In this document: one piece after another, positions 24,450 to 63,921 of the stretch
Position numbering within the stretch: the first letter of the stretch is position 1
How the letters are laid out: each line of letters begins with the position of its first letter
From: a virus
Length of the DNA: 64,000 bases
IMG/VR virus record: IMGVR_UViG_3300042561_000402
Coordinates: 5,899-69,898 of that record
Strand: one strand, 5' to 3'
Notes under the pieces: model-generated
What the model was told of the DNA's origin: nothing
Seen by the model: the letters and a program-made list of their open reading frames with translations, nothing else
Databases searched by the model: none
Made by a program: the position numbers and the translations under genes

Positions 24450-25224
24450 CCTGTTTCGCCGCGCTCCTGAATGCCGTTCCGCCCCACCAGAGGGTTATGT
24501 ATGGACTCCGCCGCCACTAAATCTGGCGTTTCTTTTCTGTTCTCGCGACTATGGGCAGGCTATTCGTGTATTAACTTGGGCCAAGGATCTTGGAAAACAA
24601 CCCAACGAAATCCACTTCATTACGGACGAGGGACTGGATTGTAGTGCTGCTGTAGAGATTGCGAAAAAAGTATTTAAGAAATGCGTAGTGCATTACATTC
24701 CGCTCTGTCACATGCCTTGGCCAGCATGCAATAACCATGCCTTTGCCGAAACCTGTAAGATTATGGCAGGACTTGGCAAGCCTTGGTTGCTTTGGGAAAC
24801 GGACATGATCCCATCCCAGCCTGATTGGGTTGCTCGCTTGGAGGGGGAGTATCAGAAGGCTAAACGTCCCTTCATGGGAGCTTGGGTGGACTGCTTTGAC
24901 CACATCAACGGAGGGGCAATCTATCCTCCCGATGTCATCTCATGGTGTCCAAAATTCTTTAGCCAGCCAGCCACTTCTCAAATGGCTTTTGATTGTGCGA
25001 TAGCCCCAGAGATCATCTGGTTTTCGCATCCAGCCAACCACATGATGCCAAACATCTTTTATTCAAGATCCAATGGGCGACCAGCAGGACTTATCCCTAA
25101 TCCTACAGTGTGGAATCCCAAGGTGTTTGAATGGGTGCATACCCATGACGCTTGTATTATTCACCGTGATAAGCGCGGAGAATGTATTGATTTTCTCCGT
25201 GAGAAATTCGGTGTTCGCAAATAG
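24436..25224 (+). CDS. glycosyltransferase-like protein
   Basis: PWPACNNHAF..LWETDMIP..WVARLEGEY..GGAIYPP..IHRDKRG; paralogue of 2660-3616. Confidence 0.5.
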   Translation: MLNPDLFRRAPECRSAPPEGYVWTPPPLNLAFLFCSRDYGQAIRVLTWAKDLGKQPNEIHFITDEGLDCSAAVEIAKKVFKKCVVHYIPLCHMPWPACNNHAFAETCKIMAGLGKPWLLWETDMIPSQPDWVARLEGEYQKAKRPFMGAWVDCFDHINGGAIYPPDVISWCPKFFSQPATSQMAFDCAIAPEIIWFSHPANHMMPNIFYSRSNGRPAGLIPNPTVWNPKVFEWVHTHDACIIHRDKRGECIDFLREKFGVRK

Positions 25225-31200: not shown

Positions 31201-34200
31201 CGCTGCTACGCCAGCCTTCTTTGCTGGTACTGTGTACATCCCAATATCAACCGAAGCTTCAATTACGCCAGCAGCCATAGAGCCTTTGGGCAACTGAAGA
31301 ATCTTTTGAATGGCCTCAACAAATGCTGTCCATAGAGTGCGGCTAGGTTGAGTCGGATCTTTGAGTGTTTTGAGAAGTTCGCGAAAATCGGGCTCTGCAA
31401 ATGTTTGAGAAACAAATTCCTCAATGTTTGCCAAGCCATACAACTGAACCCAGTTTAGATCCTTACGAAGAGTTCCTTGAGCCTGCAACCTTCTGGCCAT
31501 GGCGCGAGATGTATCTGCCTTGGGACTTCCAGCAACTCCATCAGCGCCAAAATATTGTTCCGTAATACCAAGCTGATCAATGGTCGATATGTAAAGCGAA
31601 AACAACTTCCTGATTGGCTCTGGTGTATTGGTGTCGTTGATGGCCTTGTTAAGCGTATCCAAATAATCCCTGCCCCTGTTTTGAGTAAATCTACGAGGAG
31701 CATATTTACGAATTTCGTCGGCAGTAATGGTGTGGCCAACCTCATGAACGAATAACTCAACAGGAGTTTTTAGGGTAGATGGTATGGCTATTACCCTCCT
31801 GCCATCAGACAAGGTGAACCTCCCAGCCCGCCCCTTCCTACCAAGAGAAGAAAGGCTTACAACCTCTTCGGAATCCAGAATGGGCATTTGCAACTCGGCA
31901 AGAATTGCTGCCACATCCTGCATCATTATCTCATTAGGATCAGATTGCGCGATCTTTGACAAATTGAGGCGCGAGACATTGATCAATGCCGCCCTAGCCG
32001 ACTTACCAATAACAACCTTTGGGGCTACAGAATTGACCCCATATTTCGTCTTGCCCTTAACATCCACTGGAGGTTTGCGGGCGCGTTCGCGTTCTGCTGC
32101 TTTTACAAAGTTTTGAGCCTGTTCCTCAGTCAATGCTCCAGCAAGCGGGGCTTGTGCAGGGGCGGCAGCAACGGGCGGCTCGGCGGGAGGTGCTGCTGGG
32201 GGTAGCGCTACTTGCGCGGTTTTTGGGGCGGTAGCAGGAACCCCTCGTCCTTCAATAGCTGGACTAGGCGGGACTTCTCCTGCGGCGACAGGGACTGCTT
32301 TGGCTTCTGGTTGAGCTTGAGCAATTCCTCGCTGGGGTTGGGTAGCTTGTTCATCTTTTCTTCTCCATTGTTTATTCTGCTGTAGCTCGTCTTGAGCCAT
32401 TCGTTGATTTTCTGCTTTTGCGCTCTCAACCATCTGTGCTGCTTCTTCTGGAGCAACATTAAATGCCAGTTGATAGTATTCTGGATCTTCAGAATAACGC
32501 ATCTGGGCAGGAATAACCCCGCCATTCTCTTCAAATTTTGCTCGCACGAAGTCTCTCCACTCTTCGGCTCCCATTTCCCCAGCCTCGTCTTGATAGCTAG
32601 ATGCCACAAGTGCGGCAGTTTCTTCATCAACTCCAATGCTAGTCAGAATCTTTACTGCTTGTTTGCCGCGAGGATTAAGAGTTTCAGGGTCAATTGTTGG
32701 GCGAGCTTCGGGTTGGGCGGGTTCCGTGGGAGGAGTAACCTCACCAACAGCGGGAGGCGTGACTGCTGCAACACCAGTTTCAGGCACTACGATTCTACTC
32801 GGATCATCAGAATTTATGCGTAGTTGTTTAACAAACTCCTCTGGCTCCATCTTTCCTTTAACGCGATCCCAAGCTTTTCCTACACTGGAGTTTTTCTCAG
32901 GCGATGGAACTTCTCCCTTTTCCTGCAATGATTTTAGTACGGCCTCATAATATGAGTCAACTATTCCTGCCCCCATTTGCTTAAATCCCTCTTCAATTCC
33001 AGCCCCAGTCTCCTTCTTTTGTAGGGCTTCCAATGCTTGTCGTTGAGCCTCTTCCTGCTCCTTGAGAAGTTGCGCTATCTTAGCTTGGGTATTGCCATCG
33101 CCTGCGGGCGGTTGTCCTTCGGCTTGCTGCTTTAGGGCTTCGGCGCTTGCTGGGCCATAGCGTTTAGCTTCTTCAGATTCTGCTGTTTCTTTAGCTTCGG
33201 TTTGCGCCCTTTGTGCCGCAATTTCTTCAGCAATCCTTTGTATCTCAGCCGCCTTGGCTTGGGTGGTTTCTGAAAGTCCAATCATGCGAACCAGCGGAAC
33301 CATGCCAACATTCTCTGCCATCAAGCGTCCAGCTTCGGTAACAGTAGCAACGCCCTGTTCGTTGATTTCAACCATCGGGTTCTTCTTGCTGGGTAGGAAC
33401 CTACCCTCACCAACACTAGTAATGCCAACTGCTACACGCTCGCGGCCCGTCAGAGACTCAGCACCAAGTCCATTGGCAATCTTAGCCAAGGCCGTAACGC
33501 TATCTTTGGTTTGCTGAGTGGCTCCAAGCGCGTCCAACTGATCCACAATTTGTTCGTTGACCACATTGATGCGCGAAGGAACAAGGATTTCGTTGTAGTA
33601 AGAAAAGTCTGCTGCTGCCAGTTTGGCCTCAAGTTGGTTTCGGGCCACACGGGAAATGCCATCATCCTCCAAAAGTTCAGTGAGTTGCTTGCGCTCTTCT
33701 TGCAGGGTTGTCATCCTGTTACGATCCACAGAACGAGCGCCAAGATTCGTCGCCATATCGCTAGGCTGAGTTACATCATATTCGCGCTGAAACTCTGCTC
33801 CAATCGGGGAGGATGCTGCTGCTTCGGAGATTTCTTTTTCAACATCGGAAATGGACTGCCGCATTGATGCCATGGACTCTTCCCTGCGAGCCATCTGGCT
33901 GGGAGCCCGCATGTAGTCATATCCATATTTAAGTCCCTCTACGGTTCCACCCGTAATTCCGCCAATAACCAAAGCCTTGAATGCATTATTAACAATGTCA
34001 GATGTGGCCAGTTCGGGGTTGAATGAGAATTGTTCAATGATTCCTTGGGCAAGCTGATCAGCAAACTCTTCGTAGCCCTCATTTCGCATGCCCTTAAAAA
34101 TATTAGGAACGAACGCATCAAGTTCCCCCTTGAATGCCGCCGTATTAAGCTTTGCCTTAATGCCATCCACACCTTCGCGGAACACGCCTTCCGCACCACG

Positions 34201-35901
34201 CTTACCTCCCAAGGTGGTTACAATAGCGGTAGACAATCCAGAGAGAGCGGCGGGTAGCTGGGCCTCTTTGACGGCTTCCGCTCTGGCTTGAACTGGATCC
34301 ATTCCACCATCGATTTTCTCTTTTTCAAGTTGCTGAAAGGCCGAAGAAAGAACCCCACCATAAGACTGGGCAAATGCCATGCCAACCGAAGATCCAAATC
34401 CAATATTGCTGACAGTCTTTGGCTTAAGGCCAAGCTTGCTGCCACCAAGACCAATTGCACTTCCGAAGCCAATTTGTGTAACAATTTGAGGAACAACAGC
34501 CGCGAGTTCTGCGGCAAATGTTGGCCCACCAATCTCCTGTGAGATGCGGCTTAATCTTTGGATCTCGTCACTTGTTTTAGTTGCGGAATCCAAAAACGGA
34601 TCGGCAAAATCTTGCGCCCCTAGCGTGAGCGCTGTTCCGCCAACAATGGCCTGACCAGCCTCAAGCAGTCCAAGGGCTCCCTTGGTAAGACCAATACCGA
34701 TTTGTGGAAAAGTTTTACCAACATAATCCAACCAGTCTTCGTTGCGATTTTTCCATTGGGATATCTGCTGTTTTGGAGAAACGTTTTCTAAGTTATTCTC
34801 TTTAACGAAGTCATTGAATTCGCTGACTTGTTGCAGAAATGGCAACTCAACCTTTGCAGCCTCTTCTTGAAGTTGTGGGATAGATGCGATGGTCTTTTGC
34901 TTCTTGGCATCAGAGATATCGAGGGCATTGATCTCCGCTTTAATTCCTTCAGCGTCCCACACATGGAGCGGGGACACTCGGATCTCGTTGTTGACGATGC
35001 CAACTTTGGCAGCTTCAGTTCTTCCAGTGCCATCCTCTGTTCCCAGCTTCCAAGTATCCGCTGGCCCCTCTTTAACTTTTTGGCCTCTGGCCAAATCAAG
35101 CATTGTTAGTGCTTCGCGATACAGTTTTCCTTTTTCGGGATCGTTCTGATTTAAAACGGATTCCTGTAATTCACGATACTCTTCAGGGCTACCCAAATAT
35201 TCTATAAGGTATGTTCCAACATCCATCCCCTTTTCAGCCGCCTGTCCAATCACATCGGCAGCATTATTAATCTTGGTTTCACCCTCCTTGAAGCGATCAA
35301 CAAATTGATTGTTTAGGGATTTCTCTTCGGCGCTATACTTAGCCTGAATGGATGCCATTGCTTCTTTGCGCTTCTGGTCATCTTCGATAGCGCGGGCTGC
35401 TTCGTATTCCTGCTCGGCGCGGCCATCCAATTCATATAGAGCGTTAGCTCCCTCATCCCCAAAAATCCCACTACCCCTGCGATCTTCGATGTAATCGATA
35501 CGGGCCTGTTTTTGATCGGCAAAATATTTATCGTAAGCTGGTTGAAGATCCTTAAGCTTGGAAGCATCATCACCTAATTGAGCCTGAGACCTAATCATGG
35601 ACTGCCATTGATTGGTCATTTCAACCTCTTGCTCTGGAGTGCGTTCTGGGGACTCTGCCAGACTTTTATATTTCTCAGAGGCCGACTGAAGAGCAACAGA
35701 TCTTTCTTTGTAGCCTTTGGCTACTTCGTCATATTGCTGAAGAATCGAAGGGGTGGACGGAGCATTTGCCGACTCTCCAATTACAGAGTCATTAGCGCCC
35801 CAATCGTCTTGTTGATCCTCAACTACGAGGTCGTTTTCGCCCCAAGTCTCCGAATCGTTTTCACCCACCACGGGATCGTTAATGCCCCATTCTTCATCCA
35901 T
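25231..35901 (-). CDS. 3556-aa large polyvalent / internal virion (ejection) protein
   Basis: Gly/Ala hydrophobic N-terminal region, two HExxH motifs (HEVGH, HEFWH), ART-like domain (LFHGT..FGKGYYLT..GFDGI..QIKS), helical LPD-type C-terminus. Confidence 0.8.
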   Translation of the reverse strand: MDEEWGINDPVVGENDSETWGENDLVVEDQQDDWGANDSVIGESANAPSTPSILQQYDEVAKGYKERSVALQSASEKYKSLAESPERTPEQEVEMTNQWQSMIRSQAQLGDDASKLKDLQPAYDKYFADQKQARIDYIEDRRGSGIFGDEGANALYELDGRAEQEYEAARAIEDDQKRKEAMASIQAKYSAEEKSLNNQFVDRFKEGETKINNAADVIGQAAEKGMDVGTYLIEYLGSPEEYRELQESVLNQNDPEKGKLYREALTMLDLARGQKVKEGPADTWKLGTEDGTGRTEAAKVGIVNNEIRVSPLHVWDAEGIKAEINALDISDAKKQKTIASIPQLQEEAAKVELPFLQQVSEFNDFVKENNLENVSPKQQISQWKNRNEDWLDYVGKTFPQIGIGLTKGALGLLEAGQAIVGGTALTLGAQDFADPFLDSATKTSDEIQRLSRISQEIGGPTFAAELAAVVPQIVTQIGFGSAIGLGGSKLGLKPKTVSNIGFGSSVGMAFAQSYGGVLSSAFQQLEKEKIDGGMDPVQARAEAVKEAQLPAALSGLSTAIVTTLGGKRGAEGVFREGVDGIKAKLNTAAFKGELDAFVPNIFKGMRNEGYEEFADQLAQGIIEQFSFNPELATSDIVNNAFKALVIGGITGGTVEGLKYGYDYMRAPSQMARREESMASMRQSISDVEKEISEAAASSPIGAEFQREYDVTQPSDMATNLGARSVDRNRMTTLQEERKQLTELLEDDGISRVARNQLEAKLAAADFSYYNEILVPSRINVVNEQIVDQLDALGATQQTKDSVTALAKIANGLGAESLTGRERVAVGITSVGEGRFLPSKKNPMVEINEQGVATVTEAGRLMAENVGMVPLVRMIGLSETTQAKAAEIQRIAEEIAAQRAQTEAKETAESEEAKRYGPASAEALKQQAEGQPPAGDGNTQAKIAQLLKEQEEAQRQALEALQKKETGAGIEEGFKQMGAGIVDSYYEAVLKSLQEKGEVPSPEKNSSVGKAWDRVKGKMEPEEFVKQLRINSDDPSRIVVPETGVAAVTPPAVGEVTPPTEPAQPEARPTIDPETLNPRGKQAVKILTSIGVDEETAALVASSYQDEAGEMGAEEWRDFVRAKFEENGGVIPAQMRYSEDPEYYQLAFNVAPEEAAQMVESAKAENQRMAQDELQQNKQWRRKDEQATQPQRGIAQAQPEAKAVPVAAGEVPPSPAIEGRGVPATAPKTAQVALPPAAPPAEPPVAAAPAQAPLAGALTEEQAQNFVKAAERERARKPPVDVKGKTKYGVNSVAPKVVIGKSARAALINVSRLNLSKIAQSDPNEIMMQDVAAILAELQMPILDSEEVVSLSSLGRKGRAGRFTLSDGRRVIAIPSTLKTPVELFVHEVGHTITADEIRKYAPRRFTQNRGRDYLDTLNKAINDTNTPEPIRKLFSLYISTIDQLGITEQYFGADGVAGSPKADTSRAMARRLQAQGTLRKDLNWVQLYGLANIEEFVSQTFAEPDFRELLKTLKDPTQPSRTLWTAFVEAIQKILQLPKGSMAAGVIEASVDIGMYTVPAKKAGVAAPSPATTAEADMAPEPENSLGYDITNVVEDIKQGKTDGPLKAVNAVVKQSTELRDRIKRESQKRQRPRVRGQAPIIERIARERSSGKISDETAKALTDFVNTIRPDAIGDTAISIRGAGNVSNFDFGDSLVSFYLTQDKPELGARVGIHEFWHGLSRFLPKEELGKMSKDYTGALSEYINENPWFLAFVGRYSLTPEQYEDYKIFNPKEAETKLAPVIDSQGNITKYQIIYDNESYRYIMLDEWIAENMTDLVREKQAAPDTFMGKLAKIFWEFLDMIQAKLGLDAYESFYQLVTDPKKKLQLYRIDSVARPFQIYQPQTYAYSEESANLIRYNSLAPEPEVREATKKHIDAAASNNVEEAQRLTDEVAKSRNYNSENLLFHGTTHIFNVFKKDRANIENDFGKGYYLTNTEADAQTNYAGEGPDLTNRIERLAEQLQSNEDMDEDVAKEKAREILSGGGQRIMRVYVRLENPFNVGGPNETFLDYEAPYDETNEEYGEPTGTLVDFLDQLRSIIERYSEDSAVDADKAVGNILEAAFDQGGINASDLVSILKQEDSGIMWASDENGDLASSEIIREAIEAAGFDGIVDNLVNQKFGSQKRIGKAMAGMGADTVHTIVFNSSQIKSADAITRDDQDNVIPLSERFLAEEEDVRYAPEEEFEISPEQVEDQIDGTPEASTIKVMGAAFKLANEQSAAEGSTEGTLPLETITNAWMNSGRDTQTLEDAIIRYTNLSPEVATTLAEAISKQLDIQRGIAEISDMASKKRAEDEIEERAYSFARRVKEDLPPSVARKIETVYEVLRNDVSVQEANEVMRGLSLDEAIAATKDMENGVSMPVRSMMAQIVNRRLMDYRKNTKKSGRNEDYKASVEAHVDFFNWTNEYFKELGQGVQAISRFMDLGADGILRKLKKDTDKAVAKKIKERKSKIDQIKKDIEDGDNAAFNAAVNANKSSIDQAANNAAKQEAKKLTIEEQAQKLAQKAAKKVTGEAVRPRKADPLSELVNGHLRKYNKDFLADARAMGISQETAQKIDESAQKLRDSRVATKSEKERFDAMQEERMRVKRQLARENKYIYGERPTIWENYQSMFSDRLARRLMRDPQKKVPPSLLLFTDRLTENLLGFIPESERQASTPKSFQAMVEDALNNKEKYQEAFNKALRDISAKVEELETEASETEEGNAAYFQALAAEEFLQKLAPKIQDFPVSEKLVSRFVGQKTKNLGISLIAEYNRWYRSSRRDRGEIDAKLQQRLIADLNIPLADARRLSQSIIKDFREKADARRQKALERFKKPQEKSDPIKETPLKKFFELTNMGALTDQDAYEIMANRFDLPTWDQKFADKIYEMAQDIQDMDDGLQRRLMTQNLMVEIARQKGFNLADLGSGFIYANILSSPDTHMVNIVDTLINNFANAFADAVSIKDFSRLRGVVNGYRKGIFEAVEVMKTGRRINMPSFEEKAPLIAELVRFGKKGGVKLASKEGANSVAQSILESKPAKFLNAAKWVGRLLEAQDALNFSASVEGQRYAEAARIATEEGLKGRSKQKRIHEILNVGDGAYQKALQQAEAEGYMGTEAKFRAIEIQDEKIPADIKDRSFERGLRDVYRNMPVGVAGQLAATVNSAFEKIDNPWVRNALKLTVSPFIITPVNLFNKWLDWSPWGYKRLFMGTGGWYGVDSKYYVAPYAKGTPEWRAQLFKANSSVMVMGLLGGLIKAGIMTLNGRGPSDEEERKQWSDDGNKPYTFRFGNGPQISFVYSPWAVPLSVMANMVNWNKYNAKDDASYAYRLMASVSFVPAIVMELPFFQGAADLIDLFNMKSNTDMVKRFEKFAEGKTGMLFPNFLRYIDRLFDPQQYDSQGVKGIIIDQMPFARRLGGPKMNMFGEPIGEGKPLLDRLAGRFVAFPKPSRESRILAKYDAYPYMPNPRRAEALIDGEKAPMTEEQYGEFAIGVGQEFKKWLNSNYDPDAEVSEQALERGKKRISKRLSEIRARWVRKVSTY

Positions 35902-41921: not shown

Positions 41922-44900
41922 ATGGCAGAATTTCCTCCACGGGGCAAATCCGAGTACCCACCTTTAGGCAAGGCGTTTGTTGCCGAGTATCGCTATGGTG
42001 ATCGGGATTTTCCCGTTGTCCACATCAAAAAAGACCCAAGAGTCGATAATTACAAGGCTCCAGATGTTGGCGAGCCTTGTCCTGATAAGCGATTTCCAGA
42101 CCATGCCTTTATCCAAACCCTACCCACAAACTCTGACGAAAGAGTCTTGTGGGTCTATGAAAAACTGGATGGGCCGATTATCAGTGGAAAAATCCTTGAT
42201 AAGGATGGGAATGTCGCCACCTTAACCCGTCAACCCGTTGTTTCGGGGAGCCCTGTAGATCAAGGGTTTAAGGTTCTTTCAAGTGCCATCAACCCCGAAA
42301 ACAAAGCATTTGGGACAAAGGAAACCGTCACAGTTGACGAGTTTCCCGTTCTTCGGGGCACCCAAATTGATCCCCGTTATGGGGTTGCCTTGGAATATAC
42401 CAAAGAATTGGTGGACGCCGCAACTGCGGTTGGTGGGGTTGATGGTCTGGAATCTGTAGAGATCGAGCCCAAGGATCAGTGGCGGTCTTGGAAACTTACC
42501 ACAAAGCTCGCGCAACTTCCACAAGATCAGGTTTGGTATGGTTATCGCAAGGAGTCGCTTCCCGATGTTTTGGTTAATCTTTCAATCGTTGGCACGGAAA
42601 CATTTCAGCCTATTCCAACTTGGCGGGTTGCGCCCGACATGGCCCTTAAGGCTAGATTTACTAGGAAGTTTAGCATGGGGCCACCGCCAGACCCATCCCC
42701 AGCCCTTTCCCCTAAATACTGGGCGGAACCGTTTTATATTGCTGTAGAATATTTGCGAGAGTCTGCAAGTGAATCCGAAACAACTTCAAGTTCAACATCT
42801 TCTGGTACAACTAGCTCCACCAATTCATCAACTCAAAGCTCTACTTCTAGCGGTACGCAGTCTGGAACCAATACTTCTACACAGACTTCCACTAATAGCT
42901 CAACACAATCTTCTACAAGCAGTGGAACCCAAAGTTCTACCAATAGTTCTACCAGCAGTTCTACCAATAGCTCTACGCAATCCTCAACCAATAGTTCAAC
43001 GCAAAGTTCTACGGGGTCTTCAACGTCAAGCTCCACAAACAGTGGAACACAAAGTTCTACCAGTAGTGGCACCCAGAGTTCCACTAATTCTTCCACATCC
43101 TCGTCTACTAATTCGTCTACATCGTCTTCCACATCTTCTAGTACAACTAGCTCGACCAATAGTTCCACGCAGTCGTCCACTGGATCTTCCACCTCTTCTT
43201 CTACTAACTCGTCCACCCAATCTTCAACATCCAGCGGAACTACCAGTTCAACCAATTCATCAACATCATCTAGCACCTCTAGTGGAACCACTAGCTCTAC
43301 AAATTCTGGAACTAATAGCTCAACCAACAGTTCCACAAATTCCTCCACTTCTAGCTCTACAAATTCTGGCACAACCAGTTCCACTAACTCGTCCACGAAT
43401 AGCTCTACATCATCATCAACAAATAGCTCCACAACTAGCTCAACCAACTCTTCCACCAACTCCTCTACCACCTCATCAACGAACAGCGGAACCAATAGTT
43501 CAACTAACTCATCCACCAATAGCTCAACAACATCTTCGACTAATAGTTCTACACAGAGTTCCACCAACTCTTCTACTACATCTTCTACAAACAGTGGCAC
43601 TGCCAGTTCTACAAATAGCGGAACACAGAGTTCGACATCCAGCGGAACAAACAGTGCTACAAATTCATCTACAAGCAGCGGAACTACCAGTGGGACATCG
43701 TCATCAACAAGCAGTTCAACCAATTCATCCACCACATCCTCTACGAACAGTGGCACAACAAGCTCCACTAATAGTTCCACTAACAGTTCTACCACAAGCT
43801 CAACCTCAAGCTCTACCAATTCTGGAACACAATCATCCACCAACTCCTCTACATCATCGTCCACCAATAGTGGAACCACAAGCTCCACTTCAGGCGGGAC
43901 AACATCATCAACCAACAGTGGAACGCAAAGCTCCACAACATCTGGAACAAATGAATCAACTAGCAACTCTGAAGGTAATGGATCAGACTCGTCAGCAGAA
44001 TCAAATCAAGGAGCAGTAACACTAGATGACCCAAATACGAACAGGGTTCAATTTTTTGAATCAACAGTAATTGGAAGCTCCACAACCTCTGGAACAAATT
44101 CTGGAACATCAAGCTCCACTAACAGTGGAACCCAAAGCTCAACCTCAAGTGGAACATCGTCATCAACCAATAGCGGCACTCAAAGTTCAACATCTTCTGG
44201 TACAACAAGTTCCACTAACTCGGGAACACAATCGTCCACATCAAGCGGGACAAGCACTTCTACATCTTCTGGTACGCAATCATCCACTAATAGCGGAACG
44301 TCATCGTCTACATCAAGTGGAACCAACAGTTCTACATCAAGCTCTACAACATCTTCCACAACAAGCTCTACGTCCTCTGGAACCACCAGTTCCACCAATA
44401 GCTCTACATCTAGCTCGACTAATAGTGGAACAACGTCTTCAACTAATAGTGGTACGTCAAGTTCAACCTCTAGCTCTACCTCCTCCTCGACCAATAGCGG
44501 AACAACCAGTGGAACAACTTCTTCAACATCTTCTGGAACAACATCGTCAACCAATAGCGGAACTAGCAGTGGCACAACTAGCTCTACCTCTTCAGGAACC
44601 AGTACTTCAACTAACTCTGGCACCACCTCGTCTACAGCATCTTCAACAAGTTCGGGTACAACATCATCTACTAATAGCGGAACATCATCTTCAACACAGA
44701 GTTCAACATCTTCGGGCACCACATCTTCTACTAATAGTGGAACCACAAGCTCCACCAATTCGTCTACACAGTCTTCGACGGCCAGCGGTACATCTAGCTC
44801 TACAAATAGTTCCACTTCAAGCTCCACTGGTTCTGGAACACAAAGCTCCACTTCAAGCTCCACCTCTAGCTCAACTGGTTCTGGAACACAGTCATCCACA

Positions 44901-45482
44901 AGTTCCTCAACTCAGTCATCCACAAGTAGCGGAACCACCAGTTCTACAAATTCATCAACAACCAGTTCCACTAATTCTTCCACATCCTCCTCCACGAATA
45001 GTTCAACGCAAAGTTCTACATCTTCTTCGACAAGTAGTTCGACAGGAAGCGGGACAACATCATCCACTTCTTCGGGGACGCAAACATCAACCTCTTCAGG
45101 AACTAATAGCGCCACCAATAGCTCGACATCCTCGTCCACTGGTAACGGAACCACTAGCTCAACGTCTTCGTCAACAACAAGTTCCACAAATTCTGGAACA
45201 AACACATCAACCTCTAGCGGGACATCTTCTTCTACGAACGAGTCCACTTCGCAGAACTCAACCATATCTCGCGGTAAGTCCATCTTTAATTTGACAATAC
45301 CCAAGTGCCTGCGTAGTAATATCAATGTAACATTACCAAGCGGTGACTCATTTACCATTCCAGCAACCAGACAAACTGATCTTAGTTGGGGAGAATATGT
45401 GGAAGTAGCCCGTCAAAGCGAACATTGGAAACAGGGTATTTGGATTACCGAAATAACAGAAATATATTTACCAGAGCTTTAA
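41922..45482 (+). CDS. 1186-aa putative virion protein with a large Ser/Thr repeat insert
   Basis: Globular N- and C-termini flanking two xTxS repeat arms and a unique central segment. Confidence 0.8.
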   Translation: MAEFPPRGKSEYPPLGKAFVAEYRYGDRDFPVVHIKKDPRVDNYKAPDVGEPCPDKRFPDHAFIQTLPTNSDERVLWVYEKLDGPIISGKILDKDGNVATLTRQPVVSGSPVDQGFKVLSSAINPENKAFGTKETVTVDEFPVLRGTQIDPRYGVALEYTKELVDAATAVGGVDGLESVEIEPKDQWRSWKLTTKLAQLPQDQVWYGYRKESLPDVLVNLSIVGTETFQPIPTWRVAPDMALKARFTRKFSMGPPPDPSPALSPKYWAEPFYIAVEYLRESASESETTSSSTSSGTTSSTNSSTQSSTSSGTQSGTNTSTQTSTNSSTQSSTSSGTQSSTNSSTSSSTNSSTQSSTNSSTQSSTGSSTSSSTNSGTQSSTSSGTQSSTNSSTSSSTNSSTSSSTSSSTTSSTNSSTQSSTGSSTSSSTNSSTQSSTSSGTTSSTNSSTSSSTSSGTTSSTNSGTNSSTNSSTNSSTSSSTNSGTTSSTNSSTNSSTSSSTNSSTTSSTNSSTNSSTTSSTNSGTNSSTNSSTNSSTTSSTNSSTQSSTNSSTTSSTNSGTASSTNSGTQSSTSSGTNSATNSSTSSGTTSGTSSSTSSSTNSSTTSSTNSGTTSSTNSSTNSSTTSSTSSSTNSGTQSSTNSSTSSSTNSGTTSSTSGGTTSSTNSGTQSSTTSGTNESTSNSEGNGSDSSAESNQGAVTLDDPNTNRVQFFESTVIGSSTTSGTNSGTSSSTNSGTQSSTSSGTSSSTNSGTQSSTSSGTTSSTNSGTQSSTSSGTSTSTSSGTQSSTNSGTSSSTSSGTNSSTSSSTTSSTTSSTSSGTTSSTNSSTSSSTNSGTTSSTNSGTSSSTSSSTSSSTNSGTTSGTTSSTSSGTTSSTNSGTSSGTTSSTSSGTSTSTNSGTTSSTASSTSSGTTSSTNSGTSSSTQSSTSSGTTSSTNSGTTSSTNSSTQSSTASGTSSSTNSSTSSSTGSGTQSSTSSSTSSSTGSGTQSSTSSSTQSSTSSGTTSSTNSSTTSSTNSSTSSSTNSSTQSSTSSSTSSSTGSGTTSSTSSGTQTSTSSGTNSATNSSTSSSTGNGTTSSTSSSTTSSTNSGTNTSTSSGTSSSTNESTSQNSTISRGKSIFNLTIPKCLRSNINVTLPSGDSFTIPATRQTDLSWGEYVEVARQSEHWKQGIWITEITEIYLPEL
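42770..45265 (+). repeat. 12/24-nt period degenerate coding repeat
   Basis: Encodes (S/G)-T-(N/S/T/Q)-S with diversified synonymous codons; interrupted at ~43950-44075. Confidence 0.9.
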
Positions 45483-45483
45483 T

Positions 45484-46128
45484 ATGGAAAAATCAAACAA
45501 AAAGACAGCAGATAGCCCAAAGTATCAAATTCTTATTGCAAGACACAACGAGAAAATTGATTATCTTAACTATTTGCCAAAGAGGGAAAATAGAAATTAT
45601 GAAGTAATCGTTAGTAACAGTGGCGACCCAAAAGACCAATTCTCTTGTGACAGAACAATTGTACGCGAGAACGTGGGAAGAGAGGCTGGACACTATTTAA
45701 ATTTCATGGCCTCAGAGTACGAAAACATGGCCCCAACAGTTGTTTTTATTCAAGCTGGATGTTTCGCGCATTTTAATACCATTGAACCAATACTAGAGCT
45801 TTTTTATGGGGCTCCCGAATTCCCATTCCCAATGAGTTTTTTGGGCACGGAATCTGTAGTTGGAATTGAGAGTGTTCCAAGATGGTCTGAGGCCGAGCAT
45901 ATACTTAAAACAGCTTGGCAAGACGCAAGCTGGAACAAACCAATCAAAGGCAAGCCTTGGGTAATTGGAGGCGGGGCACAGTTTTACGTCAAAAAAGAAA
46001 TTCTTATTAAAAGACCTCCAGAACATTATTTAAGAGCCATTGAATGCGCCAGAGATCCAGACTCAAAACTCGCACATGTTCTAGAGTTTCATTGGCCCAA
46101 CATGTTTGATCTTTCCTGCCTTCATTAG
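45484..46128 (+). CDS. DUF3431-like (glycosyltransferase-like) protein
   Basis: IARHNE.IDYL, NVGREAGHYLNF, VFIQA..H, GAQFYV..I, HVLE..W. Confidence 0.75.
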   Translation: MEKSNKKTADSPKYQILIARHNEKIDYLNYLPKRENRNYEVIVSNSGDPKDQFSCDRTIVRENVGREAGHYLNFMASEYENMAPTVVFIQAGCFAHFNTIEPILELFYGAPEFPFPMSFLGTESVVGIESVPRWSEAEHILKTAWQDASWNKPIKGKPWVIGGGAQFYVKKEILIKRPPEHYLRAIECARDPDSKLAHVLEFHWPNMFDLSCLH

Positions 46129-46148: not shown

Positions 46149-46787
46149 ATGGAACAAAAAAAATACAACGTACTGCTTGCGACACACTCAGAAGATCTTG
46201 ATTGGTTGAGATATCTTCCCAAAGAAAGAGATTACAACATTATTGTTTCCAACAGCAATGGGGTGAAAGATGTCTTTAATGCCGATTTGGTTCTAAATAG
46301 GGAGAATTACGGTCGGGAAGCAGGCCACTACTTTCATTACATGGTTGAGTTTTATGAAAGCTTGCCAGAAATAACCATGTTTGTGCAGGGTGATCCTTGG
46401 CCTCATGCTGCTGCTGGAAATTATACAATTTCGCTAATGGAGGTTCTTTTTGGAACGCCCGAATTCGTGTGGCCAATTACTTATCTTGGAAAGCAGTATT
46501 CACCAAGCAAGCTCCTCTCTGGAGAGGATTCAAGACAGGCAAAAGCGATTAGGGCTGGAATCGGGGATCTTCCCATAGGACAAGGAATACCAATCAGTAT
46601 TGGTGCCAATTTTTACGCAAGGAAGGATATCATCCTTTCTCGCCCAAAAGAAGTTTATCAAAGCTTTTTGAAATACGCAGCAGACAAAACGATATACCCA
46701 GATGATCCTTATTACACGTTGGCACACGATCTAGAAGGCGTTTGGGGCGGCGTGTTCCAACATTCATCTGGAAAACGTGCCATCTAA
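46149..46787 (+). CDS. DUF3431-like protein, paralogue of the previous gene
   Basis: EDLDWL, NYGREAGHYFHY, FVQGDPWPH, GANFYA..I, HDLE..W. Confidence 0.75.
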   Translation: MEQKKYNVLLATHSEDLDWLRYLPKERDYNIIVSNSNGVKDVFNADLVLNRENYGREAGHYFHYMVEFYESLPEITMFVQGDPWPHAAAGNYTISLMEVLFGTPEFVWPITYLGKQYSPSKLLSGEDSRQAKAIRAGIGDLPIGQGIPISIGANFYARKDIILSRPKEVYQSFLKYAADKTIYPDDPYYTLAHDLEGVWGGVFQHSSGKRAI

Positions 46788-48667
46788 TGAGCGACATTCT
46801 TTCTGGTGGCGTAATTGATGATTCAACATCAGGCCCAATTCCATCCAATCTGGATGATCGGAAAAGGGACATTATTGCCGAACAGAAAGAAGCCCAGAGG
46901 CAAGACGCTATAGGTGGAACAGAAGTTCCACCAACCCCAAGTCAGCCGCAACAAATTCCAGAGCCACCACAGGTAGCACCACCGCTACCCGTAATACCAT
47001 CGTTTGAATTTAACATCCCTGCATCGTTGGCAGAGGAAACAAGAGAGGTTGCCAGACAAGCAACCATTGACGTTATTAAAAACGTCACAATTAACGGCCA
47101 AGGCCCATCCATTGAAGGCTCCACAATCTCCTTCAACATACCTCAAGAAAGGCCAGCAAATGAGGTTTTTGTTTTTCAGGGGATCGCCATACCACAATCG
47201 CAACTTTCTCAAGTAACTCAACCACAAATCCAGCAACAGCCAACGATTCAATTAGATAGAAATCAAGAAATACAATCTGTTACAGTATCTTCTCCGCAGG
47301 CAGTACGGGTTACAACGGAGCAAACTCAAGAACCCCAAGTAACAATTCAAGAAAGTCGCAGTGCAGAAATCAAAGCCATTCCTGCTGCCACAACTCAGGA
47401 AGAGGCTGTACAGCCAGAAATTCAAAAAATATCGACTGCCCCCCTTGTCGAAGCGGAATCCATACCTTTACAGGAACCCACTGTCCCACAATCACAGTCA
47501 GCCGAACCAAGAAGTGAGTCCATTGGGGAAAGGCAAGTTAGGGAAAACAATGAAAGGGCAGCAAGAAACAGAGAAATAAGGAGTGCCCTCGGATTGGGTG
47601 AAGCCTCGCCTTTTGATGAACCTCCAGAAGTTGTACCCAGAGAAACAGTTCCTATCGGGCAAAAACAAGACATAGAGAACAATGAAAGAGCCGAAAGAAA
47701 CAGAGAAATAAGGAGCAATCTTGGACTTGGCAATGAATCACCATTAGATAAATACGAGGGAGTTTCTTTTGGAGAAAGGCAAGATGCGGAACTTTCTGAA
47801 AGAAGAGAAAGAGATAAAAAAATAAGAAGAGATCTTGGATTGGGTGAAATTTCTCCCTTTGACGAAGAAACGGATGTAGCCAAAGGCTTTAAAGCAGCCG
47901 AAGAAAGATACCGCCAAAGAATAGAAAGTGGCCCCAACTTTGACCGCGAATCAGATGTGCGTCAAAAAGGCGAAAGATATAGTGATTTTAAAGAGAGGCA
48001 AGAAGCCCTAAAAGAAGAACGCTCCGAACGCGCCGAAGCAGTAAGAGAACGGGCCGAACTCCAAAAAAGACTTAAAGATGGTGGAATTGCAGAAACCCCT
48101 AGTGGCATGGTTCCAGTTGCTCTTACGAGGGCAGATGGACAAAAAAGGATTCTGGCCTACCTCTCTTCGGAATTTGTTGGTGTTGTGGAGGGTGGTGAAT
48201 CCCAAGATAGAATAACGAGCTTACCAGCAGAAGGTGACTATTATGAAGCTGGTGGAGGCGGTGCCCCTGATCATCCTTGGAAAATAAGAATTAGAACCAT
48301 ACCAGAAACAGAGCCCCCAGAATATGAATATATGGTTGTAAGTGGAAAACTTTATACTGGTATAGGGGGTTGGGACAGCGTTGATGTTGAAGGTCTCAAT
48401 GAATGGAAATCGGCGCAAGAAGGTAACGTGATTCTTTTTGGAGAAGTTACAAATGGAGAATGTTCAGCCGCCTCAATAAAATTTGAAGAAACACTCCCAG
48501 ATCGTATTAAATACAATGATTTGGATCAGGAAGAATTCAATACTGTGATTGGATATCTATTTACATATGAAGGAACGTTTTCCGTTAAACAAGATGCGTT
48601 CCAAAATTTCACATTGACACAATTCTGTGTTGATTCAAAGTCAGCAATATACCCAATTTCGACTTAA
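46787..48667 (+). CDS. putative virion/tail protein with internal repeats
   Basis: ATG at 46787; P/Q/E-rich linker, three ~40-aa repeats, GGGG..HPWK followed by a beta-rich domain. Confidence 0.55.
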   Translation: MSDILSGGVIDDSTSGPIPSNLDDRKRDIIAEQKEAQRQDAIGGTEVPPTPSQPQQIPEPPQVAPPLPVIPSFEFNIPASLAEETREVARQATIDVIKNVTINGQGPSIEGSTISFNIPQERPANEVFVFQGIAIPQSQLSQVTQPQIQQQPTIQLDRNQEIQSVTVSSPQAVRVTTEQTQEPQVTIQESRSAEIKAIPAATTQEEAVQPEIQKISTAPLVEAESIPLQEPTVPQSQSAEPRSESIGERQVRENNERAARNREIRSALGLGEASPFDEPPEVVPRETVPIGQKQDIENNERAERNREIRSNLGLGNESPLDKYEGVSFGERQDAELSERRERDKKIRRDLGLGEISPFDEETDVAKGFKAAEERYRQRIESGPNFDRESDVRQKGERYSDFKERQEALKEERSERAEAVRERAELQKRLKDGGIAETPSGMVPVALTRADGQKRILAYLSSEFVGVVEGGESQDRITSLPAEGDYYEAGGGGAPDHPWKIRIRTIPETEPPEYEYMVVSGKLYTGIGGWDSVDVEGLNEWKSAQEGNVILFGEVTNGECSAASIKFEETLPDRIKYNDLDQEEFNTVIGYLFTYEGTFSVKQDAFQNFTLTQFCVDSKSAIYPIST

Positions 48668-49503
48668 TGGGCAAAACTTCACATATTAAATATTTTAATG
48701 ATTGTTCCACGGTAGCACCTTATCCGCCAAAGGGCACAGGTGGCACCATAGTTGGAACTGGGGATTATGAATATTATTGTATAAAACTACCAATTCCTGC
48801 TTGTCTTAGACTTTTTTGGGGTGTTAAAAAGTGGAAATTATCTTATGATTATGATTTTCATATACTAATAGATGATGAATCCACAGATGATTCAAACGGA
48901 TATTTGCTTGGAAGCGAGATAACTGGTTCTGGAAGTGTTGAACTTGTAAGTGGGGATGGATATAGTACGTCTAATCTAAATTATATACATCTTCTTTCAG
49001 AAAAAGAAACTGATCTTTTCTGCAAAAACATAGAGCCAGAAACTAACGTATTGGATTATGGTTGGGATTATCCAGTAACCTACACCCGCAAGATCATTAA
49101 AAACGAAGGAACGGAAGAAGAACCAGAAATCGTCACAACAGTTGACGAGCTTCAAGACAATTTATACGCAGCATTTGGCAGCGGTGGGGGTAGCCAGCAA
49201 GAGTTTTTTTCAAGGTTTTCAGAAACAGAAGATCCTTCAAATGAATTTTGGGTTAGCTTGATATTAACTCTAAGCGTTGGATTTAGTGCTGGGTATAGCC
49301 AATTTGACACACCAACCTTCAATATAAGCAGAAGTACAACAGCCACGCTTAAGTTTCTTAACTACCAAATTCCAATTGAATTAGGAGCCACGAGCCTTCC
49401 AAGCTACGTTTTAAAATCTGAGGTTTCTAATGTTATTTTAGAACCCTATGAATGGTGGACATATGATGGAAAATATGATTCAGAAACTGGGCTTGAAAAT
49501 TAA
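48667..49503 (+). CDS. putative tail-associated protein
   Basis: Coupled to the previous gene; acidic and beta-rich. Confidence 0.5.
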   Translation: MGKTSHIKYFNDCSTVAPYPPKGTGGTIVGTGDYEYYCIKLPIPACLRLFWGVKKWKLSYDYDFHILIDDESTDDSNGYLLGSEITGSGSVELVSGDGYSTSNLNYIHLLSEKETDLFCKNIEPETNVLDYGWDYPVTYTRKIIKNEGTEEEPEIVTTVDELQDNLYAAFGSGGGSQQEFFSRFSETEDPSNEFWVSLILTLSVGFSAGYSQFDTPTFNISRSTTATLKFLNYQIPIELGATSLPSYVLKSEVSNVILEPYEWWTYDGKYDSETGLEN

Positions 49504-63553: not shown

Positions 63554-63921
63554 TAGCTTCGGGCAATCTCCTCGTAGACCTTGGCCTTACCAGTAGCAAA
63601 TGCGATATAAGTGTAGCCAAGACTTAGTTCAATTTCGTAAACATTGTCTCCCGCCGTCAGATTTGACGCCTGAGTGGCCGTCATTACTATTTCGATAGTT
63701 CCGTCCGCTCCAAGCGTAATTCCGCTTCCTGCGGTCAATGTAAGCAAACTGGCGCTATCCTTGGCGCATTCCCGAATGACCATGTTGGCCCCGTAGCCCG
63801 AAAGATTAACTGGGACATTGGACTTACCTTTACAAGACTTGGTCAGATAACGAAACTTCGCCGTCCATGTCTTTCCTTGGACGATTTCAATATCTCTCTC
63901 AAGTCTCCAGTAGTTGGTCAT
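63553..63921 (-). CDS. tail/baseplate adaptor-like protein
   Basis: [25 protein letters not shown] Ig-like pattern. Confidence 0.6.

What the first reader, a model, noticed from the sequence alone, without database searches (positions are those of the whole stretch)
41922..45482. Two symmetric ~410-aa xTxS arms around a short tip: a possible giant beta-hairpin tail tube
Seen: the insert runs ~42770-45270 with a unique segment (..QGAVTLDDPNTNRVQFFESTVIG) centred near 44030, giving arms of about 418 and 410 codons. The 4-residue register is near-strict, Pro and large hydrophobics are absent, and synonymous codons are scrambled, so selection acts on the protein. TQTST and STG variants sit in the outer part of both arms, roughly mirrored. 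Known: phi29 lower-collar gp11 builds a 24-stranded beta-barrel tube from one long hairpin per subunit. Inference: a similar but far longer self-measuring tube, at most ~130 nm at ~0.33 nm per residue, fitting the lack of a tape-measure or tube gene in this window. Alternatives are an ice-binding-type Thr-ladder solenoid or a glycosylated mucin-like filament.
Basis: partly seen in the sequence, partly recalled or inferred. Interest (0 to 1): 0.88.

Follow-up and report, generated by a model that had tools for sequence, protein, structure and literature searches.

The report
Giant length-matched Ser/Thr hairpin fibre
A lake-water phage encodes a protein in which two equally long runs of about 99 four-residue Ser/Thr repeats flank a small conserved tip, and relatives keep the two runs equal while their length changes fourfold, so the chain most likely runs out and back as one very long thin two-stranded stalk rather than being a floppy linker.

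Summary
ORF 41922-45482 (+, 1186 aa) has a base domain, 99 tetrads [N/S/T/Q]-S-[S/G]-T, a 37-aa tip, 98 tetrads, and a 77-aa C-terminal domain. There is no register break, no Pro and no large hydrophobic residue, and synonymous codons are scrambled.

New here: the family shows the predicted co-variation. In 27 of 33 homologues the tip lies at 47-53% of the insert, while the insert ranges from 210 to 1161 aa. AlphaFold packs the N and C parts into one all-beta base, with two long flanking strands at the insertion point. Insert-less relatives have only a 25-37-aa loop there. Thr keeps one side-chain parity along whole arms.

The giant out-and-back beta-hairpin is therefore supported. The tail-tube reading is not supported, though not excluded. 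The N-terminal 95 aa is a shuffled anchor module. In three relatives checked, fibre genes or a gene with beta-propeller repeats lie just upstream. Close relatives differ fourfold in arm length.

The two downstream DUF3431 genes model as GT-A glycosyltransferase folds. They are absent from 13 of 25 loci, so glycosylation looks optional.

This scan noted similar giant fold-back hairpin fibres on other phage DNA. I found no published description in my searches.

The parts
41922..45482 (+). Whole gene, 1186 aa: base domain, arm 1, tip, arm 2, C-terminal domain
   Evidence: The ORF is listed and translated. It has no Pfam or PHROG family.
41922..42206 (+). N-terminal anchor module, aa 1-95
   Evidence: phmmer finds this module in 105 of 162 collected proteins. 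In 77 of them neither domain 2 nor the C domain is detected. The AlphaFold model of homologue P0001 gives pLDDT above 90 here.
42207..42773 (+). Base domain 2, aa 96-284, all-beta. Its last strand leads into arm 1.
   Evidence: Conserved motifs were seen in the loci. The AlphaFold model has pLDDT above 90 and a long strand at residues 262-286 of P0001.
42774..43961 (+). Arm 1: 99 tetrads [N/S/T/Q]-S-[S/G]-T, aa 285-680
43962..44072 (+). Tip, aa 681-717. An irregular acidic lead-in, then the conserved motif (family consensus G-A-x-x-x-G-D-P-x-T-N-R) and a short hydrophobic stretch.
   Evidence: Alignment A4 of 16 homologues. The tip sits at 0.504 of the insert.
44073..45248 (+). Arm 2: 98 tetrads, aa 718-1109
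45249..45482 (+). C-terminal domain, aa 1110-1186 plus stop. It packs with the N part.
   Evidence: Alignment A1 has 22 invariant columns. The AlphaFold model has pLDDT above 90 and a long first strand at residues 546-573 of P0001.
45484..46128 (+). DUF3431 paralogue a, a probable GT-A-fold glycosyltransferase. It starts 1 nt after the stop of the repeat gene.
   Evidence: Pfam PF11913, 36.5 bits against a cut-off of 25. Junction sequence read. 37% identical to paralogue b.
46149..46787 (+). DUF3431 paralogue b, a probable GT-A-fold glycosyltransferase
   Evidence: Pfam PF11913, 45.9 bits. AlphaFold model pLDDT 84, pTM 0.86. The shown Foldseek rows are nearly all GT-A glycosyltransferases. The VIA top 26 rows are glycosyltransferases with Z 7.9-6.7.
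46787..48667 (+). Conserved downstream partner gene ('p641'). Its probable ATG overlaps the DUF3431b stop as TAATG. Function unknown.
   Evidence: Junction read. blastp homologues follow the repeat gene, directly or after the DUF3431 gene(s), in 13 of 24 related loci. No Pfam, PHROG or PDB sequence hit.
48667..49503 (+). Last gene of the same + strand block, 278 aa, unknown
   Evidence: ORF list. No family hit.

Best explanation
The gene encodes a virion appendage protein of an uncultured lake-water tailed phage. An ordinary short loop between two neighbouring strands of its all-beta base domain has been stretched into one very long out-and-back two-stranded beta ribbon. The stretching came from independent expansion of 12-nt (4-residue) Ser/Thr repeats on both sides of the loop.

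Arm 1 (99 tetrads) runs outward. The 37-residue centre forms the distal tip. Arm 2 (98 tetrads) returns in register, so the C-terminal domain can complete the base fold.

Thr and Ser at tetrad positions 4 and 2 line one face of the ribbon. The variable position 1 and the Ser/Gly position 3 line the other face.

Fully extended, the stalk would be roughly 100-130 nm long. This is arithmetic from 396 residues at 0.26-0.33 nm per residue.

The stalk most likely belongs to a homo-oligomeric fibre or whisker of the tail-fibre module. It holds a conserved tip at a distance that evolution can retune by adding or removing tetrads in both arms.

The two GT-A-fold DUF3431 enzymes encoded directly downstream probably add sugars to exposed Ser/Thr as an optional decoration.

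Shown: the repeat anatomy, the arm-length co-variation, the even-period pattern, the insertion point, the co-folding of the N and C parts in a model, and the GT-A-like fold model.

Inferred: the actual pairing of the arms, the oligomeric state, the place on the virion, and the glycosylation.
For: (1) Matched arms.
- In 27 of 33 family proteins the tip lies at 0.47-0.53 of the insert, while the insert spans 210-1161 aa.
- Counts of regular tetrads are 99/98 (window), 136/137, 40/40, 60/61, 39/39, 26/25 and 35/34. They fall within one tetrad in 7 of the 11 proteins with regular arrays; a twelfth, P0151, had none.
- In greedy sister pairs the changes in the two arms correlate. r = 0.68 for 16 pairs from all 33 proteins. 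r = 0.98 for 13 pairs after dropping 6 outliers and one duplicate.
- The window protein and its 94% identical relative differ by 156 aa in each arm.

(2) The two arms of one protein can use different repeat units, for example NTST against GTST, or different 16-aa units. Equal length is therefore not a by-product of copying one arm into the other.

(3) Beta-compatible periodicity.
- There are 0 register breaks in the xSST-type arms.
- In 51 of 64 arms at least 80% of all Thr lie on one residue parity.
- In 61 of 64 arms the parity is the same in both halves, across lineages with different repeat units.

(4) Insertion point. Homologues without the insert join the same two segments by a loop of only 25-37 aa. 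In several of them the loop ends in a 'SGAP'-type motif like the tip motif.

(5) The AlphaFold2 model of the 628-aa homologue P0001 (48-row alignment).
- The N part (1-286) and C part (546-628) have pLDDT above 90 and are all-beta.
- Long strands at 262-286 and 546-573 run from the base into the first 15-16 residues of each arm.

(6) Fibre-like context.
- The 95-aa N-terminal module is combined with unrelated downstream parts in 77 of 162 proteins. Some of these carry Ig-like PF05345.
- The upstream neighbours in L032 and L031 are PHROG tail-fibre proteins, E 8e-32 and 4e-20. The upstream gene in L009 has RCC1/NHL repeats.

(7) Known precedents for out-and-back beta structures in phage tails. 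These are phi29 gp11 and T4 gp37, where domain D10 is made of residues 811-881 plus 1010-1026.

(8) DUF3431b models as a GT-A fold. A DUF3431 gene directly follows the repeat gene in 12 of 25 loci. In the window it starts 1 nt after the stop codon.
Against: - AlphaFold gives the arms themselves pLDDT of about 30 and no secondary structure. Pairing of the arms is therefore inferred, not modelled. I could not inspect coordinates to confirm that the two flanking strands touch.
- Six of 33 proteins are asymmetric. In three pairs with identical flanks (L029/L030, L023/L024, L021/P0005) only one arm differs, by 48-192 aa. Their arrays are 83-95% identical repeats, so this may be assembly collapse. 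If it is real, it shows that unequal arms exist.
- The base fold matches no solved structure: Foldseek best E 0.11, VIA best Z 5.7. The place on the virion is therefore not shown, and there are no virion proteomics.
- The oligomeric state is unknown.
- A tip motif conserved across distant lineages is unusual for a receptor-binding tip.
- DUF3431 is absent next to the gene in 13 of 25 loci, including close relatives L016 and L017. It also has no invariant DxD motif.
- No mirror pairing code beyond periodicity could be detected.
Confidence: 0.55

Rival explanations
1. Self-measuring tail tube. Twelve or six copies form a ring. Their hairpins assemble into a long single-walled beta-barrel that conducts DNA, as the phi29 lower collar gp11 does on a smaller scale. 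The tip loops would dock a distal knob, perhaps the product of the conserved downstream gene.
For: - The topology is the same as gp11: an N domain, a long strand, a tip loop, a long strand, and a short C segment that folds with the N domain. In gp11 the tip loop binds the knob (passages of PMC6542822).
- The tip motif is conserved across lineages. That fits docking to a conserved phage partner better than binding to host receptors.
- A conserved gene of unknown function follows in 13 of 24 loci.
- No tape-measure family (PF10145) or T7-type tube family (PF17212) was found in the 69.9-kb genome.
Against: - The base is all-beta and shows no match to gp11 or to any ring-forming adaptor.
- The N-terminal module is shuffled among unrelated architectures. 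Relatives insert up to about 1200 aa of tandem domains before the base. This is hard to reconcile with a closed dodecameric ring.
- Arms vary fourfold between phages whose bases are 75-95% identical.
- One-arm variants exist in assemblies.
- The arms carry almost no charge.
- The absence of recognised tube genes is uninformative, because most structural genes of this phage hit nothing.
Confidence: 0.1
2. Unpaired, flexible, possibly heavily O-glycosylated mucin-like loop (tether). The arms do not pair. The tip sits at the midpoint only because that maximises the reach of a loop whose two ends are fixed in the base.
For: - The composition is pure Ser/Thr/Asn/Gly/Gln low-complexity sequence.
- AlphaFold predicts no structure for the arms.
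- GT-A-fold enzymes are encoded directly downstream, and an FkbM-type methyltransferase lies elsewhere in the genome.
- One-arm variants with identical flanks exist in assemblies.
Against: - There is no Pro at all, unlike mucin-type regions.
- The 4-residue register has 0 breaks over about 100 tetrads per arm despite scrambled codons.
- Thr parity is conserved along whole arms in 61 of 64 arms. A disordered chain has no reason to forbid odd-length indels.
- Arms match to within one tetrad in 7 of 11 regular proteins. Selection on reach alone would only constrain the shorter arm, so this precision is unexpected.
- DUF3431 is missing from 13 of 25 loci that still have the arms.
Confidence: 0.2
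3. Thr-ladder beta-solenoid or ice/water-ordering surface. Each arm coils into a solenoid that displays flat Thr/Ser arrays, as in antifreeze or ice-nucleation repeat proteins (recalled knowledge, not checked here).
For: - The arms are regular and Thr-rich, with Thr on one parity.
- Some lineages have a Thr at every second residue, in NTST or GTST units.
- The source is lake water.
Against: - A solenoid gives no reason for two arms of equal length around a midpoint tip.
- A 4- or 8-residue period is too short for a solenoid turn.
- In the window protein the constant face alternates Ser and Thr, so it is not a TxT pattern.
Confidence: 0.04

Closest known systems
Phage phi29 lower collar gp11 (Xu et al. 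2019, PMC6542822; passages read with 'find')
   Same: The chain topology is the same. An N-terminal domain is followed by one long strand out, a short tip loop, one long strand back, and a short C-terminal segment that folds with the N domain. The arms are matched, at about 69 and 71 residues in gp11.
   Different: The gp11 arms are about 70 residues (180 A), not 100-550 residues. They are not low-complexity repeats. The gp11 base is all-alpha, and it forms a proven 12-mer with a 24-stranded DNA tube. Here the base is all-beta with no structural match. The oligomeric state is unknown and the context points to fibres.
Needle (domains D10-D11) of the phage T4 long tail fibre protein gp37 (PMC6957217, passages read; the crystal structure paper by Bartual et al. 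2010 is recalled, not read)
   Same: This is a fibre in which the chain goes out to a distal tip and returns. D10 is built from residues 811-881 and 1010-1026. It lies in a tail-fibre gene module, and the tip lies mid-sequence.
   Different: gp37 is a trimer held together by seven iron ions bound by His residues. The arms here contain no His. They are 5-10 times longer and are built from Ser/Thr tetrads. No sequence or fold similarity was found.
GT-A fold glycosyltransferases, e.g. dolichyl-phosphate mannose synthase 5mlz, core-2 GlcNAc transferase 3otk and mannosylglycerate synthase 2bo4 (for the DUF3431 neighbours); phage virion glycosylation as reported for mycobacteriophages (recalled; only the search listing and abstract of PMC11256854 were seen)
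   Same: The DUF3431b model aligns over 146-170 of its 212 residues with GT-A enzymes. The gene sits directly after a Ser/Thr-rich candidate substrate.
   Different: The scores are modest: Foldseek E 3e-4 and weaker, VIA Z below 8. There is no invariant DxD motif. No activity, donor or acceptor is known for DUF3431. The four papers holding the term gave no function in the listing.
Giant fold-back hairpin phage fibres noted earlier by this scan on other genomes (AI notes e1-5870273, e1-5729468, e1-5764035, e1-5881546, e1-5943162; unchecked by me)
   Same: The design is the same: two long repeat arms kept equal around a small tip, read as one two-stranded beta ribbon. e1-5870273 also has Ser/Thr repeats.
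   Different: These are different protein families. No shared words were found with this C domain. Several of those notes report a residue-by-residue mirror code, which I could not detect here. This family is the one with adjacent DUF3431 genes.

Membership tests
phi29 gp11-type lower collar / beta-barrel tail tube | Chain topology: N domain, long strand, tip loop, long strand, then a C segment that folds with the N domain | tested here: met
   In the AlphaFold model of P0001 the N and C parts both have pLDDT above 90, with long flanking strands. The gp11 description was read.
phi29 gp11-type lower collar / beta-barrel tail tube | Alpha-helical base domain homologous to gp11 | tested here: not met
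   DSSP of the model shows only strands in the base and no helix of 4 or more residues.
phi29 gp11-type lower collar / beta-barrel tail tube | Dodecameric ring whose 24 strands form a DNA-conducting barrel | not testable with these tools
   The complex predictor allows at most 4 copies and 1000 residues. No virion data exist.
T4 gp37 needle-type fold-back fibre tip | Chain runs out to a distal tip and back, so that the flanking segments form one domain | tested here: met
   Matched arms are shown. The N and C parts co-fold in the model. Pairing along the arms is inferred.
T4 gp37 needle-type fold-back fibre tip | His-containing metal-binding motifs along the needle | tested here: not met
   There is no His in either arm. 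The gp37 iron sites are described in the passages.
T4 gp37 needle-type fold-back fibre tip | Sequence or fold similarity to gp37 collar/needle domains | tested here: inconclusive
   No gp37 chain appears among the PDB sequence hits or the listed structural rows. The arms were not modelled, so they could not be compared.
Pfam PF11913 (DUF3431), for the two downstream genes | Score above the curated Pfam cut-off | tested here: met
   36.5 and 45.9 bits against a cut-off of 25. The L010 homologue scores 48.6 bits.
GT-A fold nucleotide-sugar glycosyltransferases (for DUF3431) | GT-A Rossmann-like fold over the whole domain | tested here: met
   The model has pLDDT 84 and pTM 0.86. The shown Foldseek rows are nearly all GT-A glycosyltransferases, best E 3.4e-4 with probability 0.98. 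The VIA top 26 rows are glycosyltransferases with Z 7.9-6.7 and 146-170 aligned residues. All Z values are below 8, so this is fold-level evidence only.
GT-A fold nucleotide-sugar glycosyltransferases (for DUF3431) | Conserved DxD (or DxH) metal and nucleotide-sugar binding motif | tested here: inconclusive
   The 13-row alignment has no invariant DxD. The invariant residues after strand 4 are F78, Q80 and H86. Metal-independent GT-A enzymes exist, for example 3otk, listed.
Mucin-type disordered Ser/Thr/Pro O-glycosylation region | Pro-containing Ser/Thr-rich sequence without a fixed structural period | tested here: not met
   0 Pro in 790 arm residues. The period is a strict 4 with 0 breaks. 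Thr parity is conserved.

The most novel reading that the evidence does not exclude
The hairpins of 6 or 12 subunits assemble into a single-walled Ser/Thr beta-barrel about 100 nm long. It would be a tail tube that needs no tape measure, because its length is written in the number of tetrads in both arms. Close relatives would then retune tail length fourfold by compensated repeat expansion, and the tube would carry an optional sugar coat.
Probability: 0.1. Interest if true: 0.92.

Novelty: new variant of a known kind. Interest (0 to 1): 0.72.

Why it matters
If the reading holds, it has four consequences.

- Sequence that every annotation pipeline would dismiss as a disordered low-complexity linker is a structural element: a two-stranded beta ribbon of hundreds of residues per strand. 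Its length is tuned by compensated expansion of two independent repeat arrays.
- That would be an unusually clean natural example of co-evolution between two repeat tracts in one protein.
- It would give a simple genetic 'ruler' for how far a phage holds a functional tip from its body.
- It would offer a minimal scaffold (Ser, Thr, Asn, Gly) for designing protein rods of programmable length.

The natural series of 26, 40, 60, 99 and 137 tetrads per arm makes the idea directly testable. The link to DUF3431 also gives this fungal and viral domain of unknown function a first concrete hypothesis: a GT-A glycosyltransferase acting on Ser/Thr repeats.

Tried and rejected
**Oligomer prediction.** Three copies of the 124-aa tip region, with alignment A4, gave 'no answer' (score 0.00, mark 0.42, partner pLDDT under 50). 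This counts neither for nor against binding.

**Fold of the base.**
- Foldseek against PDB: best E 0.11.
- VIA-align wide: best Z 5.7, and the small-barrel rows from phage neck proteins at Z 4.2-4.6 are at noise level.
- BFVD: only one uncharacterised phage protein, E 1e-4.
- PDB sequence search with the family profile gave only low-complexity hits.
- The ESM Atlas gave no usable hit for aa 1-284.

**Virion role from annotation.**
- Pfam and PHROGs found nothing for the target, for insert-less homologues, or for most window structural genes.
- PDB sequence searches of the putative capsid, portal and p641 proteins gave nothing.
- INPHARED tblastn with the N domain, the 411-aa protein and the large terminase found no match.
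- PF12236, PF10145 and PF17212 have no match in the genome. For PF12236 the controls did not ring either, so that search says nothing.

**Host.** Two scans of 185,579 species genomes found no relative.

**Mirror pairing code.** Identity profiles show only an 8-residue superperiod and no unique register.

**Context of insert-less homologues.** Single-protein scans found none in viral contigs.

**Literature.** The searches found no description of this family or of Ser/Thr tetrad hairpins. I did not try to open paper supplements. The supplementary figures of PMC6542822 may hold gp11 details that I did not see.

**Read laying.**
- Runs X1, X3 and X4 gave only small or partly fitting pieces.
- No contig spans a whole arm, so total arm length is not independently confirmed.
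- The small-share runs X3-X19 are not used as evidence of habitat.

Full report
**What is there**

The window is 64 kb of a 69.9-kb virus record. The record is rated 96% complete and has no end repeats. The ORF 41922-45482 (+) encodes 1186 aa. Its layout is as follows:
- an N part, aa 1-284;
- arm 1, aa 285-680, 99 tetrads;
- a unique centre, aa 681-717;
- arm 2, aa 718-1109, 98 tetrads;
- a C-terminal domain, aa 1110-1186.

The tetrad is [N/S/T/Q]-S-[S/G]-T.
- Position 4 is Thr in 99 of 99 and 97 of 97 tetrads.
- Position 2 is Ser in 94 of 100 and 92 of 98.
- Position 3 is Ser or Gly in 98 of 100 and 97 of 98.

A sliding phase track finds no register change in either arm. The arms contain no Pro, no His and no large hydrophobic residue.

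Synonymous codons are mixed. Thr at position 4 uses all four ACN codons. Tandem Repeats Finder sees only short degenerate arrays with 62-92% matches. The regularity is therefore maintained at the protein level.

**The family and the key test**

The N domain has 284 representative relatives at E <= 0.001 among 1.84 billion proteins. Scans of viral contigs with the N domain gave 9 loci, and scans with the C domain gave 24 loci. All full-length members with an insert share one plan: base, arm, a short centre with a conserved motif (alignment A4), arm, and a conserved C domain (alignment A1).

I measured two distances in 33 proteins. D1 runs from a conserved N-side anchor to the centre. D2 runs from the centre to a conserved C-side anchor.
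- In 27 of 33 proteins the centre lies at 0.47-0.53 of the insert, while the insert ranges from 210 to 1161 aa.
- Pearson r is 0.87 for all 33 proteins and 0.996 for the 27.
- Counts of regular tetrads per arm are 99/98, 136/137, 40/40, 60/61, 39/39, 26/25, 35/34 and 24/26. Three proteins match less well: 32/25, 42/37 and 36/43.

Among greedy sister pairs, the changes in the two arms correlate.
- 16 pairs from all 33 proteins give r = 0.68.
- 13 pairs give r = 0.98 after dropping six outliers and one duplicate.
- The window protein and its 94% identical relative L011 differ by 156 aa in each arm.

The two arms of one protein often use different repeat units, for example NTST against GTST in L029, or two different 16-aa units in L024. 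The arms therefore expand independently and are kept equal by selection, not by a copying mechanism.

**Results against the reading**

Six of the 33 proteins are asymmetric.
- Three of them (L030, L023, P0005) have relatives with identical flanks in which only one arm differs, by 48-192 aa.
- The repeat arrays of their lineage-mates L029 and L024, the two I checked, are 83-95% identical. Short-read assemblies of such arrays are unreliable, but real one-arm variation cannot be excluded.
- For P0031, P0066 and P0152 I have no explanation, or the centre is uncertain.

**Evidence that the arms are strands**

Across lineages with different repeat units, Thr keeps to one residue parity.
- In 51 of 64 arms at least 80% of Thr share one parity.
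- In 61 of 64 arms both halves share the same parity.
- The phase shifts I saw in less regular members are mostly by two residues (my reading of the printed tracks).

An even period with one constant face is what a beta strand needs. A disordered or polyproline-type chain has no such need.

Homologues that lack the insert connect the same two segments by a loop of only 25-37 aa. In P0137, P0102 and P0113 that loop ends in '..KSGAP', which resembles the tip motif. So the arms look like a stretched ancestral loop, with the old loop tip carried outward.

AlphaFold2 on the 628-aa homologue P0001 (alignment A2, 48 rows) gave the following.
- The N part and the C part are confident (pLDDT above 90) and all-beta.
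- Two unusually long strands, 262-286 and 546-573, run from the base into the first 15-16 residues of each arm.
- The rest of the arms has pLDDT of about 30 and no structure.

I could not inspect coordinates. That the two long strands pair with each other is therefore an inference.

**Tube or fibre**

According to PMC6542822 (passages read):
- gp11 residues 103-258 form two 180-A antiparallel strands joined by a 16-residue distal loop that binds the tail knob;
- 24 such strands form the tube;
- the N-terminal 96 and C-terminal 32 residues fold together.

A second precedent is the T4 gp37 needle, where domain D10 is made of residues 811-881 and 1010-1026 around the distal D11 (PMC6957217, passages read).

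Several results point to a fibre-type appendage rather than a tube wall.
- The base is all-beta and matches no solved ring former.
- The first 95 aa occur in 105 of 162 collected proteins, and in 77 of them neither domain 2 nor the C domain is detected.
- Some relatives carry Ig-like PF05345. Others place more than 1000 aa of tandem modules before the base (L019).
- In L031 and L032 the genes just upstream are PHROG tail-fibre proteins, E 4e-20 and 8e-32. In L009 the upstream gene carries RCC1/NHL repeats.
- Phages with 75-95% identical bases differ fourfold in arm length.

No tape-measure or T7-type tube family is found in the genome. But almost no structural gene of this phage hits any model, so that absence carries little weight. 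I keep the tube at about 10%.

**The neighbours**

The repeat gene, two DUF3431 paralogues, a 626-641-aa gene and a 278-aa gene form a tight + strand block. Spacers are 1 nt, 20 nt and a TAATG overlap.

DUF3431b, modelled with 13 homologues, has pLDDT 84 and pTM 0.86.
- Its Foldseek rows are GT-A glycosyltransferases, including a metal-independent core-2 GlcNAc transferase. The best E is 3.4e-4.
- The top 26 VIA rows are glycosyltransferases with Z 7.9-6.7 and 146-170 aligned residues. Nucleotidyltransferases of the same fold class follow.
- All Z values are below 8, and no invariant DxD motif exists. This is a fold-level assignment only.

A DUF3431 gene directly follows the repeat gene in 12 of 25 loci. 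None is detected in 13, including close relatives L016 and L017. Any glycosylation is therefore an optional decoration and not part of the stalk's construction.

A Pfam FkbM methyltransferase lies at 23102-23764.

**Source**

The gene is held by lake-water metagenome runs. In run X2, which is not the run marked as a possible source, seven contigs match without differences. They include pieces of 1040 and 846 nt inside the arms.

No relative was found in 185,579 prokaryote species genomes or in the cultured-phage collection. The host is unknown.

**Comparison and novelty**

The design works like the gp11 hairpin or the gp37 needle, but it is a member of neither family. The gp11 base fold is not met, and the gp37 metal motifs are not met.

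Three things are new relative to both:
- the scale, 100-550 residues per arm;
- construction from low-complexity Ser/Thr tetrads;
- the demonstrated compensated co-expansion of two independent arrays.

My literature searches found no description of this.

This scan has noted the same design principle in other, unrelated phage proteins (e1-5870273, e1-5729468, e1-5764035, e1-5881546, e1-5943162). Those are unchecked AI notes and are not independent evidence.

I class the finding as a new variant of a known kind, with interest 0.72.

Noticed in passing
window 42774-45248: On top of the tetrad there is an 8-residue superperiod. Tetrads with Gly and with Ser at position 3 alternate over long stretches, roughly N-S-G-T followed by x-S-S-T. 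This is clearest in arm 2 near the tip.
   Followed up: partly
window 42774-45248: Serine codon use depends on the position in the tetrad. Position 2 uses AGY for about half of its Ser. Position 3 uses TCN almost exclusively: 2 AGY of 76 in arm 1 and 0 of 62 in arm 2. This may be a relic of the ancestral 12-nt unit or a constraint at the RNA level.
   Followed up: no
loci L029/L030, L023/L024; L021 vs P0005: These are pairs of records with identical flanking domains in which only one arm differs, by 48-192 aa. The arrays are 83-95% identical repeats. It is undecided whether this is assembly collapse or real one-arm polymorphism.
   Followed up: partly
protein P0028 (968 aa): In one family member the arms around the centre are rich in His, Asp and Glu instead of Ser/Thr, yet they are still matched at 107/103 aa. 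His-rich out-and-back arms recall the metal-binding gp37 needle.
   Followed up: no
window 46787-48667: The conserved downstream gene has a Pro/Gln-rich N part. It also has three copies of a charged repeat of about 45 aa (E-R-x-E-R-N-R-E-I-R ... L-G-L-G ... S-P-F-D-E) before a C-terminal domain. Homologues follow the repeat gene in 13 of 24 loci. It has no family or PDB hit.
   Followed up: partly
window 25231-35901 (- strand): A 3556-aa protein carries a Pfam ART-PolyVal domain, E 2.7e-9. This is a polyvalent protein of the kind thought to be delivered with the DNA.
   Followed up: no
window 23102-23764: An FkbM-family methyltransferase, PF05050, E 3e-19. The overlapping or adjacent ORFs 23436-24449 and 24436-25224 gave no Pfam or PHROG hit. 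The 'GT-like' label in note e1-6200817 is therefore unconfirmed for them.
   Followed up: partly
genome G000 C1:1-3333 (locus L035), - strand: A fibre-like ORF of more than 1111 aa is cut by the contig start. It has many copies of a motif of the type G-G-T-G-A-T-N-A ... A-R-x-x-L-G-L-G-T-A-A-T. It has no Pfam hit. Next to it are a weak LtfC-like 130-aa gene and, at the other contig end, fibre and fibre-assembly-like genes at 61577-63921.
   Followed up: no
window 42750-42790 and 45230-45270; P0001 residues 270-286 and 546-560: Where the arms leave the base, both sides carry alternating Glu-Ser runs (E-S-E-S-E-S type). This is a period-2 pattern, and AlphaFold models it as strand.
   Followed up: no
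window 19610-20170: An 8-oxoguanine DNA glycosylase-like gene (Ogg-HhH, E 1.3e-7) lies in the early region.
   Followed up: no
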